A DNA stretch of 32,000 nt from Promethearchaeota archaeon. GTDB lineage: Archaea > Asgardarchaeota > Lokiarchaeia > Sigyniarchaeales > SOKP01. The notes below the pieces were generated by a model that ran no database searches, was not told where the DNA came from, and was given only the letters and a program-made list of their open reading frames with translations. The position numbers and the translations under genes are program-made. Shown piece after piece: positions 4,190 to 26,696 of this stretch. Location: positions 60,001 through 92,000 of the forward strand of contig JAUWGH010000004.1 in assembly GCA_030606485.1 (NCBI GenBank). Reading direction: 5' to 3'. Within the stretch, counting starts at the first letter, position 1. Each line of letters starts with the position of its first letter.

Positions 4190-4441
4190 TAGTTTTAACC
4201 CATCAATTTTATATTTGCTTTTAAATATTTCTTAAGAAATTTTAATTTTTAAATAATGATATTTCCGTTAATGTAAATATCTGCAGATTATATTTTAAAA
4301 ATTAAATTAAAAATTAACTTAAGATATAGGAATCTCTCCATCTAAATGTTTAATAATTTATTAAAGTTAAATGTGAAATTCTCATATTTGTTTTTTACCT
4401 CAAATAAAATTCATCAAAAATAAAAAATGAGATTAAAAAAC

Positions 4442-4747
4442 ATGTCCAAAAAAGAAAAAAGAGTGGTCTCACCAAACATATGTGCATGGGCTGATGATGA
4501 ACATAATATTAATCATATCGAAATAACCTTACATGGAGTAGAAAAGGATTAAATCTATTTAAAAATGCATGGAGATAGTTTCTTCATTAAAGAAGAAACA
4601 GAAGAATTATTATATATAGGGTCTTATGCAATATGTTGTCCCGTAAAACCCACAGAAGCAAAACCCAAATACAAAAATGGATTACTGAAAATTGATGTTC
4701 CTTTTAAGGATTTAATGAAAGATGCTATTGAAGTAAAAATCGAATAA
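4442..4747 (+). pseudogene. Hsp20/alpha-crystallin small heat-shock gene interrupted by an in-frame TAA (4550-4552)
   Basis: ATG 4442 reads MSKKEKRVVSPNICAWADDEHNINHIEITLHGVEKD*IYLK and continues in frame into the 4565..4747 ORF (…YKNGLLKIDVPFKD…IEVKIE). Matches the Hsp20 pattern IE(I)xLPGVxKEDIxL…AxYxNGLLxI. Confidence 0.75.
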
Positions 4748-5133: not shown

Positions 5134-5622
5134 TTATTCTTCATCTCTGTGTAAATGATGATCCCACAGTGCATCATTTTTTCTCAAAAGAATATATGTA
5201 GCCAATAATTCATTAGATTGAGCCTCTTCTTCGATCTGTTCCTTAATAAACCATTGAAGCATTTCTATCGCTTCATATTCTTTTAATTCCATTGCCTTTT
5301 CTAATATTTTTTTTATTTCTCCTGTAATATATTCTTCATGTTCAATTGTAGCTTTAATGCAATCCTCTACGCCTTCAAAATCGGTTTTAACACCATCTAT
5401 TGTTTGATATTCCACATGACCTCCTGTTTCTATGATATAATTAACAAAACGTTCTGCATGTGTATATTCTTCTTTAGCTTGAGCATCAAACCACTTTGCC
5501 ATATTATGAAGCGATTTTTCCTCAGCCCATGTCGATATCCCTAAATAAATATACGCTGATCCTAATTCCTTCATAATCTGTGCATTCATTATTTCGTTTA
5601 TTTCTTTACTAATTAATACCAA
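5134..5622 (-). CDS. ftn: Ferritin (non-haem)
   Basis: Ferroxidase residues KELGSAYIY, EEYTH, EHEEYI, EQIEEE; TTG start preceded by GGTG. Confidence 0.93.
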   Translation of the reverse strand: MVLISKEINEIMNAQIMKELGSAYIYLGISTWAEEKSLHNMAKWFDAQAKEEYTHAERFVNYIIETGGHVEYQTIDGVKTDFEGVEDCIKATIEHEEYITGEIKKILEKAMELKEYEAIEMLQWFIKEQIEEEAQSNELLATYILLRKNDALWDHHLHRDEE

Positions 5623-5759
5623 TTTAATACACCTTAAATTGATGTTATTTTAATATGTATTAATTATTACTGGTTATTTTTTGTAATTTATTTTATATTA
5701 GTTATGTAGATAGAGAAAGATTTTTTACAAATTTATTATAATTTATAAATTTCTTAGTT

Positions 5760-6447: not shown

Positions 6448-6542
6448 TTTTTATTTTCTACTCTCATTTTAAAAATTGTTAATAATGATTATTTTTATTT
6501 TATAATCAATAAAATTAAAGTTTTTAATTATTATTTTTTCTT

Positions 6543-6773
6543 GTGGAGGTTTCAAATAACTGTTCAACGAAAACTTTTCATATTATTAACGAGAATAAAT
6601 GCTTAAAGTGTCAAACATTCGAATGTGAAAATGTATGCTTTAGAGGGATCTATAAAGTAATTAATAAGGATTTGGCACCAAAATGTGTTATTGTTAAAGA
6701 GAGAGAATCTTTCTGTGTGAAATGCCACCTTTGTACGACTGCATGTAAACACAAGGCAATTGAAATATTATAA
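6543..6773 (+). CDS. Dicluster-type ferredoxin (start codon uncertain)
   Basis: CLKCQTFECENVC (CxxCxxxxCxxxC) and CVKCHLCTTAC (CxxCxxCxxxC). The GTG start overlaps a GGAGGT SD-like site, so the true start is unclear. Confidence 0.8.
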   Translation: MEVSNNCSTKTFHIINENKCLKCQTFECENVCFRGIYKVINKDLAPKCVIVKERESFCVKCHLCTTACKHKAIEIL

Positions 6774-6868
6774 ACTTCCATTTAAACACATTTAAAATAT
6801 ATAAAAATTTTATTATTATCATTTACACTTTAAATTAATAATAGTAAATTTTGGAGTGAAAAAAGTAA

Positions 6869-7420
6869 ATGTTAAAACAAACTTTTAACGAGAAATTGGG
6901 GATTGATAATGATGATAAAAAGATAATAGAAATGCTCGAAGAGAATCCAGATTTAACGCACAGTTTTATTGCTGAGGAAATAGGTAAAAGCCAGCCTGCC
7001 ATTGGAGCAAGAATTCTAAAATTAGAACGAAAGCATCTTATAACTAAACAAGTTGGATTTAATCTTAGAAAAGTTGATTTAGATGTTGCGATTGTTCAAG
7101 TTTCCACACGAGATGTCGAAGAAGTTATAAAAAAAGTTAAGGATTGCCCATTTATAAATTACATCTTTCGTGTTTCTGGTGAATTTAATCTTATGATCTT
7201 TTTAGCTGCCTCATCTATTTCAATCATTGAGAAAATTGTTGATCTTTGTTTTAGGGGGGATGAGAATGTATTAAACGTAAAAACGAATTTTATCATTTCC
7301 GCAGAAAGAAGTTTCGTTATGCCCATTGATTTTAGGATTGAGAAATTTGATGGAAGTTCTTGCGGACCAAATTGTTATCTAAATAAAAATAGGCCAATAA
7401 TAAAGATTAAAAGAGATTAA
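6869..7420 (+). CDS. Lrp/AsnC-family transcriptional regulator with Cys-containing C-terminal tail
   Basis: IDxxDKKII HTH start, IAEEIGKSQPAIGARILKLE, RAM-domain SGEFNL; tail CGPNC; GGAGTGA SD upstream. Confidence 0.9.
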   Translation: MLKQTFNEKLGIDNDDKKIIEMLEENPDLTHSFIAEEIGKSQPAIGARILKLERKHLITKQVGFNLRKVDLDVAIVQVSTRDVEEVIKKVKDCPFINYIFRVSGEFNLMIFLAASSISIIEKIVDLCFRGDENVLNVKTNFIISAERSFVMPIDFRIEKFDGSSCGPNCYLNKNRPIIKIKRD

Positions 7421-7431
7421 ACCTTTTCAAT

Positions 7432-7965
7432 CTATGCATTAACTTTTTCAATTAGTCTTATACAATCTTCTCCACAACCTTCTTCTTTTGTGGGATTTTG
7501 ATCCTCTGATCTGAAATCCACCGGAAGGATTAAGTCCTTAGCAATGTCAACTACAATTTCCATTTTAACATTTGTTATGTTCTTATTGTTTCTGAAGTGA
7601 TAATTTACCATATTATCTAATTTATTCAAATTCGAGGCAGTGAGAAATAATAGGATATTTTCCTCGCCTGATAACTTAAAACAATTAATTATAAACGGGC
7701 AGACTTTCGCCATTTCAAAAATATCAACGGGATCTTTAGTCCTTAATGTCACCGATGCTAAAAATAGATCAACTTTCTTAAAATTGACACCTCTTTGCAT
7801 CTCCAGAAGTCCTTTTTCCTCCAATTTATGAATACGCATACCTACAGTAGGTTGGGATCTAGAAATTTTCTCTGCTATTTCCATATGTGTCAAAGTGGGG
7901 TTATTCTGCAACAAATCAATTATATTCCTGTCAACTTGGTCGATTCTAAATTTTGATTCAGTCAT
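7432..7965 (-). CDS. Lrp/AsnC-family transcriptional regulator with Cys-containing C-terminal tail (paralogue of 6869..7420)
   Basis: IDQVDRNII, IAEKISRSQPTVGMRIHKLE, SGEENI; tail CGEDC. Confidence 0.9.
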   Translation of the reverse strand: MTESKFRIDQVDRNIIDLLQNNPTLTHMEIAEKISRSQPTVGMRIHKLEEKGLLEMQRGVNFKKVDLFLASVTLRTKDPVDIFEMAKVCPFIINCFKLSGEENILLFLTASNLNKLDNMVNYHFRNNKNITNVKMEIVVDIAKDLILPVDFRSEDQNPTKEEGCGEDCIRLIEKVNA

Positions 7966-8140
7966 TTTATCTTGATCATTTTTTTTTAATTTTAAATTAA
8001 AATTCAGATACTTATAAAATATAAGTTAATGATTTCTAAAAAACTTTTAACATTTTTTTGTTGTATTCTTTAAAAAACTTTTATATTTTGATCATAATGA
8101 TTTTTTTTTTCACAGAGGATATTATCCGTAATTCCTTGAA

Positions 8141-25722: not shown

Positions 25723-26634
25723 TTAATTCTGGAATTCCTTTGTTCTTTTTATTTCAATATTGAATCCTTTTAGAATTTGAGATAAATGCGATTTATCTGC
25801 AGAATTTAATCCCTTCCAATCGTAAATAAAATAATCAATTTTTGATTCTATTGTTTTGTCAATCATCTGTTTAATCATTTCCTCCTTAAGTTCTTGAACA
25901 AAATATTTAGGACAAATATGAGCAATTGCTATGTTTGTATTAATTATTAGTTTTTTAAATTTAGGTGAATAGTGGGTTCCACCAAATCCCAGACCGATCA
26001 TTGGGTTTTTTCTTTTCACTATCCAATATTTTTCAATTGTTTTAATAATCGCATTAGCCACTACTTTTCCCGCTTCTTGATCGTTCCATTCAGCCTTTAT
26101 ACTGCCTAATTCCATAAAAACTAATGGAATGGAATGGTTTGTGGGTCCATGATGATTCACTTCCATATCAATGGAAAATTTTCCCTCTTCTAATTCTCTA
26201 CTGGATTCTAGTAGTGAGAGAAATCCAGCTTTTAAAAAAATAGCGCTTGAATATGCAATTTCTTTTGAATTGCCACCAAATAGTGCTTCTTCGCCCCAAT
26301 TTCCAGTTGTATGAATTAATAAAGCCGGTCGAGCTGATTTTGAAGCATGTCTGCTAGCAAAAATTAAGAAATCAGGCTTAAAATCTAACTCTTCCAATTT
26401 AAGATCGTCGAGAAAAATCAAACTCTTATCAGTAAGTCCTAAATAAACTCGATTATTTAAAGAAATTTCCTCTTTGATGAAATCTTTACCAACTTTATTC
26501 AATAGAAAGAGATTATGCCCATACCATTTATTATTTAACTCTTTAAATGTATAATTTTTAGAATTTATTAACTTATTACGGATGTTTATTGATGCGATAT
26601 CCTCCGAACTCGATATAATCAAAAAATTTGGCAT
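25723..26634 (-). CDS. dtdA: D-aminoacyl-tRNA deacylase, archaeal DTD2 type
   Basis: DIASINI, FASRH, HTTGN, EVNHHGPT, FMELGS, GFGGTHY; the likely start is MPNFLII at 26634. Confidence 0.93.
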   Translation of the reverse strand: MPNFLIISSSEDIASINIRNKLINSKNYTFKELNNKWYGHNLFLLNKVGKDFIKEEISLNNRVYLGLTDKSLIFLDDLKLEELDFKPDFLIFASRHASKSARPALLIHTTGNWGEEALFGGNSKEIAYSSAIFLKAGFLSLLESSRELEEGKFSIDMEVNHHGPTNHSIPLVFMELGSIKAEWNDQEAGKVVANAIIKTIEKYWIVKRKNPMIGLGFGGTHYSPKFKKLIINTNIAIAHICPKYFVQELKEEMIKQMIDKTIESKIDYFIYDWKGLNSADKSHLSQILKGFNIEIKRTKEFQN

Positions 26635-26696
26635 TATATTATATAATAATATACACGTTTTAATTAACCTATAACTCAATTAAAGATAGAAAAAAA

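What the first reader, a model, noticed from the sequence alone, without database searches (positions are those of the whole stretch)
6869..7965. Tail-to-tail pair of Cys-tailed Lrp/AsnC paralogues closing the redox island: candidate thiol/metal-sensing heteromeric regulator
Seen: both proteins share LTH..IAE.I..SQP..G.RI.KLE, a conserved CPFI in the effector domain, SGExN, PxDFR and a C-terminal CGxxC (CGPNC, CGEDC) beyond the normal RAM domain. Established: Lrp/AsnC proteins sense amino acids, form octamers and can hetero-oligomerise in archaea; a CGxxC tail is not part of the standard fold. Inference: the pair senses redox state, Zn or Fe-S, and controls the adjacent SOR/rubrerythrin/Prx/ferritin/FTR genes. 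No PerR/Fur-type regulator is present in this window, so this could be an undescribed oxygen-stress regulatory system in an anaerobic archaeon.
Basis: partly seen in the sequence, partly recalled or inferred. Interest (0 to 1): 0.7.

Follow-up and report, generated by a model that had tools for sequence, protein, structure and literature searches.

The report
Paired metal-site Lrp regulators, Lokiarchaeon
Two neighbouring, related regulator genes of a cold-seep Lokiarchaeon carry an invariant cysteine/histidine set that ordinary Lrp proteins lack, sit beside a small ferredoxin gene, and share a conserved DNA box with the promoters of the iron-sulfur assembly operon and ferritin, which suggests an undescribed archaeal sensor of iron-sulfur status rather than a dedicated oxygen-stress switch.

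Summary
Window 6869-7420(+) ("LrpA") and 7432-7965(-) ("LrpB") are convergent Lrp/AsnC paralogues, 41% identical, each with a CPF cysteine and a C-terminal C-G-x-x-C tail.

Across more than 120 Asgard orthologues, four positions are invariant. They are Cys93, Cys127, Cys165 and Cys169 in LrpA, and Cys89, His123, Cys164 and Cys168 in LrpB.

The pair was found in all 25 sampled genomes of the organism's family. Natural B-A fusion proteins exist, and a dimer model passes its controls. A small 2x[4Fe-4S] ferredoxin gene is the conserved neighbour in 13 of 18 loci. The SOR/rubrerythrin/Prx genes are neighbours only in the organism's own genus.

A new result concerns a 13-bp palindrome, TTATA-N3-TATAA. 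It is the rarest AT palindrome of its class in the genome, with 47 copies. It sits upstream of the ferredoxin gene, LrpB and ferritin. It also sits upstream of the TusA-DsrE-IscS-IscU operon in 22 of 29 family genomes.

My reading is a heteromeric, metal- or Fe-S-binding regulator of Fe-S and iron homeostasis that works like IscR (confidence about 0.45). Metal identity, DNA binding and effector are untested. First readers of this scan noted the same pair in six other genomes.

The parts
6869..7420 (+). LrpA: an Lrp/AsnC-type regulator of 183 aa. Cys93 (CPF), Cys127, Cys165 and Cys169 are invariant in the orthologues.
   Evidence: The fold matches Lrp/AsnC structures. The best solved relative by sequence is P. 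furiosus LrpA, 1i1g, E 5e-10.
7432..7965 (-). LrpB: the paralogue, 177 aa. Cys89 (CPF), Cys164 and Cys168 are invariant. His123 is nearly invariant and aligns with LrpA Cys127.
6543..6773 (+). Small 2x[4Fe-4S] ferredoxin (76 aa, eight conserved Cys). It is the conserved neighbour of the pair.
   Evidence: Pfam Fer4. It lies directly beside one of the Lrp genes in 13 of 18 loci from several genera, at 55-64% identity.
8012..8024 (.). Exact palindrome TTATAAAATATAA, 46 nt upstream of the LrpB start codon. Candidate operator.
   Evidence: The same box is exact upstream of LrpB in 10 of 22 loci.
6493..6512 (.). Two overlapping one-mismatch boxes (TTTTATTTTATAA and TTATAATCAATAA) in the 95-nt intergenic region shared by the ferredoxin gene and the divergent Grx-FTR genes.
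   Evidence: In other genera the ferredoxin box is exact in 9 of 15 loci and within one mismatch in 14 of 15. It ends 30-46 nt, mostly 36-40 nt, before the start codon.
6792..6804 (.). One-mismatch box (TTAAAATATATAA) upstream of LrpA. A metatranscriptome contig covers 6821-7117.
   Evidence: This is weak evidence, since contigs cannot show a transcript start.
5736..5748 (.). Exact palindrome TTATAATTTATAA, 114 nt upstream of the ferritin start codon.
   Evidence: An exact box is also upstream of ferritin orthologues in 3 of 7 other genomes, from three other genera.
5134..5622 (-). Ferritin. It is the only gene of the adjacent island for which a conserved box supports membership of the candidate regulon.

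Best explanation
LrpA and LrpB form a heteromeric Lrp/AsnC-type DNA-binding regulator, built on a B:A dimer and probably assembling into higher oligomers as in the rest of the family.

Its RAM domain and C-terminal tail carry an invariant four-residue metal site: the CPF Cys, a Cys (in A) or His (in B) at the end of helix alpha-2, and the two Cys of the C-G-x-x-C tail. I infer that this site holds a labile Fe-S cluster, with another metal less likely. Its occupancy would take the place of the amino-acid effector of ordinary Lrp proteins.

The regulator would bind the 13-bp palindrome TTATA-W3-TATAA. Through it the pair would control its own genes, the adjacent ferredoxin gene, ferritin and the TusA-DsrE-IscS-IscU Fe-S assembly operon. 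In function this is an archaeal counterpart of bacterial IscR on a different fold.

Shown here: conservation of the ligand set, the pairing and fusions, the ferredoxin linkage, and the conserved box at those promoters. Inferred: metal identity, which protein binds the box, and the direction of regulation. At the ferredoxin promoter the box ends about 38 nt before the start codon. It probably overlaps the BRE/TATA region, which would fit repression.
For: (1) Ligand set. C93, C127, C165 and C169 are invariant in 38 to 122 LrpA-type sequences at 60-65% identity across Loki-, Thor-, Hod- and Odin-labelled MAGs. LrpB keeps C89, C164 and C168 and has a nearly invariant His at the fourth column. In 84 representatives at or below 50% identity, the CP-Cys is present in 80. 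The fourth column is His in 38 and Cys in 22. The tail Cys are present in 68 and 67.

(2) Heteromer. The pair is present in 25 of 25 sampled genomes of the family and is tandem B-then-A in a sister family. Natural fusion proteins of 340-380 aa have a B-like N-half (His or polar residue at the fourth column, C-x3-C tail) and an A-like C-half (Cys). In the complex model the ipSAE is 0.83 against a best control of 0.00. That mark was reached by 58 of 80 solved complexes and 2 of 110 mismatched pairs. The runs agree in at least 89% of contacts, and partner pLDDT is at least 85. Lrp homodimers are solved, so this pass shows likeness to an Lrp dimer and does not show a preference for the heterodimer.

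(3) Sensor and transcription-factor character. Some relatives are fused to a GAF domain. The residues at the base-contacting positions defined for FL11 (PMC2715240) are H31, S41, Q42, P43, A44 (T in LrpB) and G46. All are invariant or near-invariant in both paralogues, so both would read the same half-site.

(4) Box. The form abcdeWWWedcba is the shared site form of archaeal Lrp proteins (PMC2715240). TTATA-N3-TATAA is the rarest of the 32 AT-only palindromes of this class in the genome, with 47 copies. It is also the only one that recurs upstream of the ferredoxin gene (9 of 15), LrpB (10 of 22), TusA (8 of 10) and ferritin (3 of 7). In 335 kb of loci, 19 of 26 copies lie within 150 nt upstream of the ferredoxin or LrpB genes.

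(5) Prediction and test. The genome-wide scan, made after the box was defined, put copies upstream of NifU, TusA (first gene of the isc-like operon), DnaK, ferritin, OsmC, DtxR-like and VIT1 genes. Four of the 33 intergenic copies lie within 13 kb around the pair. The TusA box then proved exact in 22 of 29 family genomes from 13 genera, and within one mismatch in 28 of 29. Its flanks have diverged. The background is 10 of 1024 AT-rich 300-nt windows.
Against: No experiment or structure shows metal binding. The AF2 monomer leaves the tail (166-183) below pLDDT 50. The complex model does not place the tail cysteines with confidence, so the four residues have not been shown to come together. In one subunit the CPF Cys and residue 127 should lie at opposite ends of the RAM domain (my inference), so an inter-subunit or inter-dimer site would be needed.

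A Cys3(Cys/His) set fits a structural zinc site as well as an Fe-S cluster.

The binder of the box is not identified. The genome has two further Lrp paralogues and three DtxR-like genes. The box resembles an archaeal TATA element and also lies upstream of TBP, TFB and unrelated genes.

Presence of LrpA does not correlate significantly with an exact TusA box (20/5 against 2/2, Fisher p = 0.24). The boxes at DnaK, DtxR-like, VIT1 and Grx-FTR are not conserved. At TusA the box lies 165-225 nt from the start codon, far for a core-promoter operator. The class 'iron/Fe-S genes' was defined after seeing the hits.
Confidence: 0.45

Rival explanations
1. The pair is an ordinary Lrp-type regulator with a structural zinc site. 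The Cys/His set only stabilises the C-terminal extension or the oligomer. The effector is a small molecule in the RAM pocket, and the proteins may or may not bind the box.
For: Cys3His and Cys4 sets are typical zinc sites. Many relatives carry an extended tail with C-x2-C...C-x-G-C pairs that looks like a zinc knuckle. Both Pfam RAM-domain hits are retained. The neighbours of single-copy homologues in other Asgard lineages are heterogeneous.
Against: This reading does not explain the tight linkage to a ferredoxin gene. It also does not explain why the box shared with the pair's promoters marks the Fe-S assembly operon and ferritin. The Cys that are universally kept (C1 and C2 of the tail, the CP-Cys and the H/C column) are not the C-x2-C pairs.
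Confidence: 0.2
2. The box is the operator of a different regulator, for example one of the three DtxR-like proteins or another Lrp paralogue. The ferredoxin-LrpB-LrpA module would then be only a member of that iron regulon, with unrelated targets of its own.
For: One DtxR-like gene has an exact box upstream in this genome. Two genomes in which LrpA was not detected keep an exact TusA box. No exact box lies upstream of LrpA itself.
Against: DtxR-family operators are about 19-bp palindromes (my knowledge). The 5-W3-5, 13-bp form is the one shown for archaeal Lrp proteins (PMC2715240). The DtxR-like gene's box is found in none of 10 orthologous promoters. The boxes are most regular at the pair's own promoters. 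The two exceptional genomes are 94% and 78% complete.
Confidence: 0.15
3. This is the first reader's reading: a thiol-, disulfide- or oxidant-sensing switch dedicated to the adjacent SOR/rubrerythrin/Prx/ferritin/FTR oxygen-defence island.
For: The adjacency holds in this genome and in its sister species. A single-copy homologue is divergent from Prx-rubrerythrin in one other Asgard lineage (L031). An exact box lies upstream of ferritin, of an OsmC-like gene, and of Grx-FTR in one sister-family genome (L021). FTR-Grx genes lie 6-9 kb from the pair in two further genera.
Against: SOR, Rbr and Prx are not near the pair in genera g2 to g6 or in most other lineages. Only one-mismatch boxes lie upstream of Prx and Rbr, and such matches occur at chance frequency (15 seen against 10 expected). 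No exact box lies upstream of Grx-FTR in 10 other genomes. A His at the fourth column of LrpB argues for metal ligation, not a disulfide switch.
Confidence: 0.12
4. The pair is not a regulator but an enzyme or scaffold built on the Lrp fold. The model is the heterodimeric siroheme decarboxylase AhbA/AhbB and its fused form NirDL.
For: The same evolutionary pattern is seen: paired paralogues plus fused forms. AhbA/B and NirDL appear among the fold matches (ranks 39-49).
Against: The NCBIfam AhbA model scores 15.9 bits against a cut-off of 140. The DNA-reading residues of the HTH are invariant. GAF fusions are typical of sensor regulators. All of the best fold and sequence matches are DNA-binding Lrp proteins.
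Confidence: 0.03

Closest known systems
Archaeal Lrp/AsnC (FFRP) regulators, e.g. P. furiosus LrpA (1i1g) and Pyrococcus FL11
   Same: They share the N-terminal AsnC-type wHTH, the RAM (beta-alpha-beta-beta-alpha-beta) domain and the predicted dimer interface through the linker and beta2/beta4-5. The candidate site has the family's 13-bp abcdeWWWedcba form.
   Different: The pair has a 35-40-residue C-terminal extension and an invariant Cys3(Cys/His) set that those proteins lack. It occurs as a fixed pair of paralogues or as a fusion. It is only distantly related: E 5e-10 to 1i1g, with the RAM hit at the Pfam threshold.
CopR (PF0739) of Pyrococcus/Thermococcus and CopT/CopR of Sulfolobales: Lrp-type regulators with a C-terminal TRASH metal domain (PMC7830388)
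   Same: An Lrp/AsnC regulator in which a C-terminal Cys-bearing appendage senses a metal instead of an amino acid. CopR is an octamer and binds divergent promoters.
   Different: The TRASH motif is C-x19-22-C-x3-C, whereas here only C-x3-C is present and there is no Cys 19-22 residues before it. No TRASH or YHS Pfam model matches the tail, even at E 10. Here one ligand lies inside the RAM domain. The genomic context is ferredoxin and Fe-S genes, not copA/copZ.
IscR (Rrf2 family, [2Fe-2S] on three Cys and one His) of bacteria
   Same: This is what the pair would work like. The ligand set is Cys3His (LrpB) or Cys4 (LrpA). The candidate regulon comprises the Fe-S assembly operon, an Nfu/NifU-type carrier and a ferredoxin, and the regulator gene is linked to a ferredoxin gene. 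In the own genus DnaK-DnaJ lie directly upstream of the isc-like operon, which recalls iscRSUA-hscBA-fdx. IscR control of nfuA is described in PMC6084964.
   Different: The fold family is different: the Rrf2 model scores 14.3 bits against a cut-off of 30 on LrpB's HTH only. The Cys spacing is different. The regulator is a heteromer of two paralogues. The ferredoxin is a 2x[4Fe-4S] type, not a [2Fe-2S] Fdx. Nothing has been shown biochemically.
AhbA/AhbB and NirDL siroheme decarboxylases
   Same: They have an Lrp-like fold, paired paralogues that form a heterodimer, and fused two-copy forms.
   Different: They are enzymes, not regulators. The AhbA model is not met, and they have no such Cys set.
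Archaeal thiol-based redox regulators (MsvR, SurR, and OxsR of the TrmB family, PMC9426492)
   Same: They are archaeal wHTH regulators whose cysteines report redox state, and they are often placed beside antioxidant genes.
   Different: They belong to different families. They work through disulfide or thiol chemistry and not a four-ligand site with a Cys/His exchange. The MsvR model scores 18.3 bits against a cut-off of 220.

Membership tests
Lrp/AsnC (FFRP) transcription regulators | N-terminal AsnC-type winged helix-turn-helix | tested here: met
   PF13404 scores 33.9 and 39.5 bits against a cut-off of 27. PF13412 scores 34.3 and 39.1 bits against a cut-off of 21.9.
Lrp/AsnC (FFRP) transcription regulators | C-terminal RAM (AsnC_trans_reg) alpha/beta domain | tested here: met
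   PF01037 scores 32.3 and 25.5 bits against a cut-off of 25. The AF2 secondary structure is beta-alpha-beta-beta-alpha-beta. All 38 best Foldseek PDB matches are Lrp/AsnC proteins.
Lrp/AsnC (FFRP) transcription regulators | Dimer through the linker and exchanged beta strands, with higher oligomers | tested here: inconclusive
   The complex model has ipSAE 0.83 against a best control of 0.00. That mark was reached by 58 of 80 solved complexes and 2 of 110 mismatched pairs. The runs agree in at least 89% of contacts, and partner pLDDT is at least 85. The interface is the canonical one. The pass may come from memory of solved Lrp dimers. Octamer formation was not tested.
Lrp/AsnC (FFRP) transcription regulators | Amino-acid or other small-molecule effector in the RAM pocket | not testable with these tools
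   No ligand assay is available here. Invariant Cys/His residues replace part of the usual surface.
Lrp/AsnC (FFRP) transcription regulators | Binding to 13-bp abcdeWWWedcba sites | tested here: inconclusive
   A conserved box of this form lies at the pair's own promoters. Binding itself was not shown.
CopR/CopT-type Lrp regulators with a TRASH domain | C-terminal TRASH motif C-x19-22-C-x3-C | tested here: not met
   There is no Cys 19-22 residues before C165 or C164. No TRASH or YHS model matches the tails at E up to 10.
IscR/Rrf2 Fe-S regulators | Rrf2-type wHTH and dimerisation helix | tested here: not met
   PF02082 scores 14.3 bits against a cut-off of 30, on the HTH of LrpB only.
IscR/Rrf2 Fe-S regulators | [2Fe-2S] cluster on three Cys and one His | not testable with these tools
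   A Cys3His (LrpB) or Cys4 (LrpA) set is conserved. Cluster binding needs spectroscopy.
IscR/Rrf2 Fe-S regulators | Operator at the Fe-S assembly operon | tested here: inconclusive
   The box lies upstream of TusA-DsrE-IscS-IscU in 22 of 29 genomes. The binder is not identified.
AhbA/AhbB siroheme decarboxylase | Match to the AhbA equivalog model | tested here: not met
   NF040708 scores 15.9 bits against a cut-off of 140.

The most novel reading that the evidence does not exclude
This would be the first Fe-S-cluster-sensing transcription factor described in Archaea. It would be an obligate LrpB:LrpA heteromer in which a labile cluster is held between subunits by the CPF Cys, a Cys/His at the end of helix alpha-2 and the C-G-x-x-C tail of the partner. 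It would govern Fe-S biogenesis (TusA-DsrE-IscS-IscU), ferredoxin and ferritin across Lokiarchaeia. It would be a convergent counterpart of IscR in the archaeal lineage nearest to eukaryotes. Single-chain relatives with a richer Cys tail occur in other Asgard groups and in Thermoproteota-labelled metagenome proteins.
Probability: 0.3. Interest if true: 0.85.

Novelty: new variant of a known kind. Interest (0 to 1): 0.7.

Why it matters
I found no paper describing how archaea regulate Fe-S cluster assembly, or any Lrp-type protein with an Fe-S or Cys3(Cys/His) site.

Asgard archaea depend heavily on Fe-S enzymes and ferredoxin, and they live at oxic-anoxic boundaries. A sensor of Fe-S status would therefore be central to their physiology and to ideas about oxygen tolerance on the way to eukaryotes.

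The finding is directly testable. It involves two small soluble proteins, a defined 13-bp box and four promoters. It also shows the Lrp fold being re-used for metal sensing through a route other than the TRASH domain, and with an obligate heteromer.

Tried and rejected
- **Cys geometry.** The AF2 monomer has mean pLDDT 76, but the tail is below 50 and no coordinates were available. The two Zn ions added to the complex job are not scored, and the tail Cys are not among the confident contacts. I derived no geometry from either.
- **Tail domain.** No Pfam model matches the tails of the pair or of four extended-tail homologues, even at E 10.
- **LrpA presence against an exact TusA box.** The counts are 20/5 against 2/2, Fisher p = 0.24, so the test is inconclusive. 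The two genomes without a detected LrpA that keep the box are 94% and 78% complete.
- **Box outside the own family.** I found none upstream of TusA homologues in 5 Asgard genomes with a Cys-Lrp or in 4 without. Orthology of those TusA genes is doubtful.
- **Box conservation at other genes.** It is exact at DnaK in 1 of 12 orthologous promoters, DtxR-like in 0 of 10, VIT1 in 0 of 12 and Grx-FTR in 0 of 10. At NifU it is exact in 1 of 10 and has one mismatch in 5 of 10. I treat the hits at these genes in this genome as lineage-specific or chance.
- **One-mismatch boxes in the window.** There are 15 against 10 expected, which is not significant. The sites near Prx (3048) and Rbr (4288) therefore carry no weight.
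- **Neighbourhoods elsewhere.** Single-copy homologues in other Asgard families, and a Thermoproteota-labelled subfamily, show no recurrent partner.
- **RNA evidence.** Only contigs were available. One metatranscriptome contig covers 6821-7117 with one mismatch. Nothing can be said about operon structure, starts or levels, and uncovered parts prove nothing.
- **Rfam.** No match in the 165-225-nt stretch between the box and TusA.
- **In-frame TGA in the sister species' Grx gene.** It is simply an earlier stop codon, not selenocysteine.
- **Literature.** Four searches found no description of this protein type.
Full report
**What is there.** The window comes from a 3.75-Mb, 13-contig MAG of a Lokiarchaeon from cold-seep sediment. 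At 6869-7420 (+) and 7432-7965 (-) lie two convergent ORFs of 183 and 177 aa, which I call LrpA and LrpB. Their stop codons are 11 nt apart. They are 41% identical.

Both reach Pfam thresholds for the AsnC-type HTH and, only just, for the Lrp/AsnC RAM domain. The best solved relative by sequence is P. furiosus LrpA (1i1g, E 5e-10). The AF2 model has mean pLDDT 76, and all its best structural matches are Lrp/AsnC proteins.

On one side lie Prx, desulfoferrodoxin, rubrerythrin, ferritin, FTR-beta, a Grx-like redoxin and a 76-aa 2x[4Fe-4S] ferredoxin. On the other side lie an EamA transporter and FtsZ.

**The cysteines.** A search with LrpA found 336 homologues. The best 120 are 59-98% identical and are labelled Promethearchaeota/Lokiarchaeota, Thor-, Hod- and Odinarchaeota. 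In them Cys93 (CPF), Cys165 and Cys169 (C-G-x-x-C) are invariant, and Cys127 is present in 121 of 122.

LrpB orthologues keep Cys89, Cys164 and Cys168. They carry a nearly invariant His at the column of LrpA Cys127.

An exhaustive search with LrpB found 1193 relatives. In 84 full-length representatives at or below 50% identity:
- The CP-Cys is present in 80.
- The fourth column is His in 38 and Cys in 22.
- The two tail Cys are present in 68 and 67.
- About a third carry three further tail Cys, in the motif P-C-G-x3-5-C-x2-C-x7-8-C-x-G-C-P.

That richer tail is the rule in single-copy homologues of other Asgard families and in a subfamily of which one member is labelled Thermoproteota. No Pfam model matches any of these tails. 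A conserved Cys3(Cys/His) set with a Cys/His exchange is the signature of a metal or Fe-S site. Sequence alone cannot say which.

**Heteromer.** The pair occurs in 25 of 25 sampled genomes of the organism's family, with the genes convergent. In a sister family it is tandem, LrpB then LrpA. The genome has only two other Lrp-type genes, neither with the Cys set.

The exhaustive search also found natural proteins of 340-380 aa made of two such modules. Their N-halves are LrpB-like (His or polar residue at the fourth column, C-x3-C tail). Their C-halves are LrpA-like (Cys at that column). This matches the tandem gene order and is a Rosetta-stone argument for a B:A dimer.

A complex model of LrpA with LrpB scored ipSAE 0.83 against a best control of 0.00. 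That mark was reached by 58 of 80 solved complexes and 2 of 110 mismatched pairs. The runs agree in at least 89% of contacts, and partner pLDDT is at least 85. The calibration holds only roughly here, because my own alignments and two riding Zn ions were used.

The interface is the canonical Lrp one. Lrp homodimers are solved, so the pass shows likeness to an Lrp dimer and does not show a preference for the heterodimer. In the model, residues 142-158 of one chain run antiparallel along beta2 of the partner, towards the partner's CPF cysteine. This hints at an inter-subunit site. The tail cysteines themselves are not placed with confidence.

**Regulator or enzyme.** Some relatives are fused to a GAF domain. 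The AhbA (siroheme decarboxylase) model is far below threshold.

[quoted passage not shown] These are invariant or nearly so in both paralogues. I therefore take the pair to be a DNA-binding regulator in which both subunits read the same half-site.

**Neighbourhood.** I ran tblastn with the window's genes against 16 loci from the family and its sister family. The SOR, rubrerythrin, Prx and ferritin genes are adjacent to the pair only in the own genus.

The conserved neighbour is the small ferredoxin. It lies directly upstream of LrpB in most genera, upstream of LrpA in the own genus, and beside a third LrpB-like paralogue in one genus. In all it is adjacent in 13 of 18 loci, at 55-64% identity.

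FTR-Grx genes lie 6-9 kb away in two further genera, in a region of general synteny. Single-copy homologues in other Asgard families have heterogeneous neighbours. One of them is divergent from Prx-rubrerythrin. The island adjacency is therefore not the conserved feature.

**A conserved box.** Aligning the upstream regions showed a 13-bp palindrome, TTATA-N3-TATAA.
- Upstream of the ferredoxin gene it is exact in 9 of 15 loci and within one mismatch in 14 of 15. It ends 30-46 nt, mostly 36-40 nt, before the start codon.
- Upstream of LrpB it is exact in 10 of 22 loci, ending 43-69 nt before the start.
- Upstream of LrpA there is only a one-mismatch variant.
- In the 335 kb of these loci, 19 of 26 exact copies lie within 150 nt upstream of the ferredoxin or LrpB genes.

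That count is circular, because the pattern came from these sequences. I therefore made three further tests.

1. *Specificity.* Among all 32 AT-only 5-N3-5 palindromes, this one is the rarest in the genome (47 copies, tied). It is the only one that recurs at these promoters.
2. *Genome scan.* Thirty-three copies are intergenic, and four of them lie within 13 kb around the pair, where about 0.1 would be expected. Genes downstream of the intergenic copies include a NifU-domain carrier, TusA (the first gene of the TusA-DsrE-IscS-IscU operon noted earlier by this scan), DnaK, ferritin, LrpB, an OsmC-like protein, a DtxR-like repressor, a VIT1 iron transporter and POR-gamma. They also include TBP, TFB and unrelated genes.
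3. *Orthologous promoters in other genera.* The results were:
   - TusA: exact in 22 of 29 family genomes from 13 genera and within one mismatch in 28 of 29, at a constant distance and with diverged flanks.
   - Ferritin: exact in 3 of 7.
   - NifU: exact in 1 of 10, with one mismatch in 5 of 10.
   - DtxR-like, VIT1 and Grx-FTR: none exact. DnaK: exact in 1 of 12.
   - Background: 10 of 1024 AT-rich 300-nt windows of the genome hold an exact box.

The robust set is therefore the ferredoxin gene, LrpB, the isc-like operon and ferritin.

The form abcdeWWWedcba is the one shown by SELEX for four archaeal Lrp proteins (PMC2715240). This is why I assign the box to the pair and not to a DtxR-type protein. 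That assignment is an inference. It did not gain support from a presence/absence comparison (Fisher p = 0.24).

**Reading.** The most economical explanation is a heteromeric Lrp-type regulator with a metal or Fe-S site. It would autoregulate and would control the ferredoxin gene, Fe-S assembly and ferritin, so it would work like IscR. It is not a member of the Rrf2 family.

In the own genus the gene order is DnaK-DnaJ-TusA-DsrE-IscS-IscU, then the antioxidant genes, then ferredoxin-LrpA-LrpB, all within 16 kb. This recalls iscRSUA-hscBA-fdx, but the compaction is genus-specific.

The closest described relatives in kind are the CopR-type Lrp regulators, whose C-terminal TRASH domain senses copper (PMC7830388). 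The TRASH motif is not present here.

Conservation does not support it.

Expression evidence is weak. One metatranscriptome contig matches 6821-7117 with a single mismatch.

**Prior notes of this scan.** First readers noted the same convergent Cys-tailed pair in six other genomes, several of them beside a ferredoxin gene. None of those notes carries a follow-up verdict. I treated them as leads only.

**Verdict.** This is a new variant of a known kind, namely an Lrp/AsnC regulator with a new, conserved metal-ligand set and an obligate paralogue pair. It comes with a testable link to Fe-S homeostasis, for which I found no described archaeal regulator.

Noticed in passing
window 4427-4747 (+): An Hsp20-like reading frame is interrupted by a single in-frame TAA at 4550-4552, which splits it into ORFs of 41 and 60 aa. 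It is probably a decayed small heat-shock gene between rubrerythrin and ferritin.
   Followed up: partly
outside the window: G000 C2:52287-58353 (about 1.6-7.7 kb before the window start): On the minus strand the order is box (58353), DnaK, DnaJ, box (55141), TusA, DsrE, IscS-like, IscU fusion. An Hsp70/J-protein pair directly upstream of an isc-like operon recalls bacterial hscBA. The adjacency, and the DnaK box, are confined to the own genus.
   Followed up: partly
window 25723-26679 (-), with a box at 26634-26646: The archaeal D-aminoacyl-tRNA deacylase ORF has about 100 extra N-terminal residues before the Pfam domain. An exact TTATA-N3-TATAA box lies just inside its annotated 5' end. In two other genomes this gene lies about 2 kb from the Lrp pair (L005, L007).
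   Followed up: no
proteins P0124-P0128, P0131, P0137, P0139, P0159; and P0177, P0184, P0189: Metagenomic relatives occur as tandem two-module fusions in the order B-like then A-like. Others occur as single modules fused to a C-terminal GAF domain.
   Followed up: partly
L025 and L026 (JGI metagenome contigs): Extended-tail homologues (one member of the subfamily is labelled Thermoproteota) are single-copy. In two long contigs they lie beside a fusion protein of about 950 aa combining an ADP-forming acyl-CoA synthetase with a GNAT domain. In L026 a stand-alone RAM protein, thioredoxin, OsmC and rubredoxin are also nearby.
   Followed up: no
upstream of LrpA in L016, L017, L019, L020, L023 and others (88-144 nt before the start): A different conserved palindrome, TTTAT-AAA-ATAAA, lies upstream of LrpA in 6 of 20 loci. 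It overlaps the one-mismatch box TTATAAAATAAAA. It may be a weaker or half-shifted site.
   Followed up: partly
G000 C8:359834 and C5:287855: Exact boxes also lie upstream of the TBP gene and of a TFB gene. This may mean that the box doubles as a core-promoter element.
   Followed up: no
L113-L122, L154-L171 and G000 C2:54965-55140: The TusA box lies 165-225 nt from the start codon. Part of the stretch in between is conserved among some genera, and it has no Rfam match. It could be a long leader, a small unannotated gene or an RNA.
   Followed up: partly
G161 contig C326:4031-5143: In this genome of another genus, an LrpA-like gene cut off by the contig end is divergent from ferritin. Two exact boxes lie in the shared intergenic region.
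   Followed up: no
several family genomes (G008 C61, G049 C20, G071 C3, G040 C51): TusA-isc, Grx-FTR and the Lrp pair lie on one contig within 10-40 kb in several genera. In the own genus the same genes are compacted into about 16 kb together with SOR, Rbr, Prx and ferritin.
   Followed up: partly
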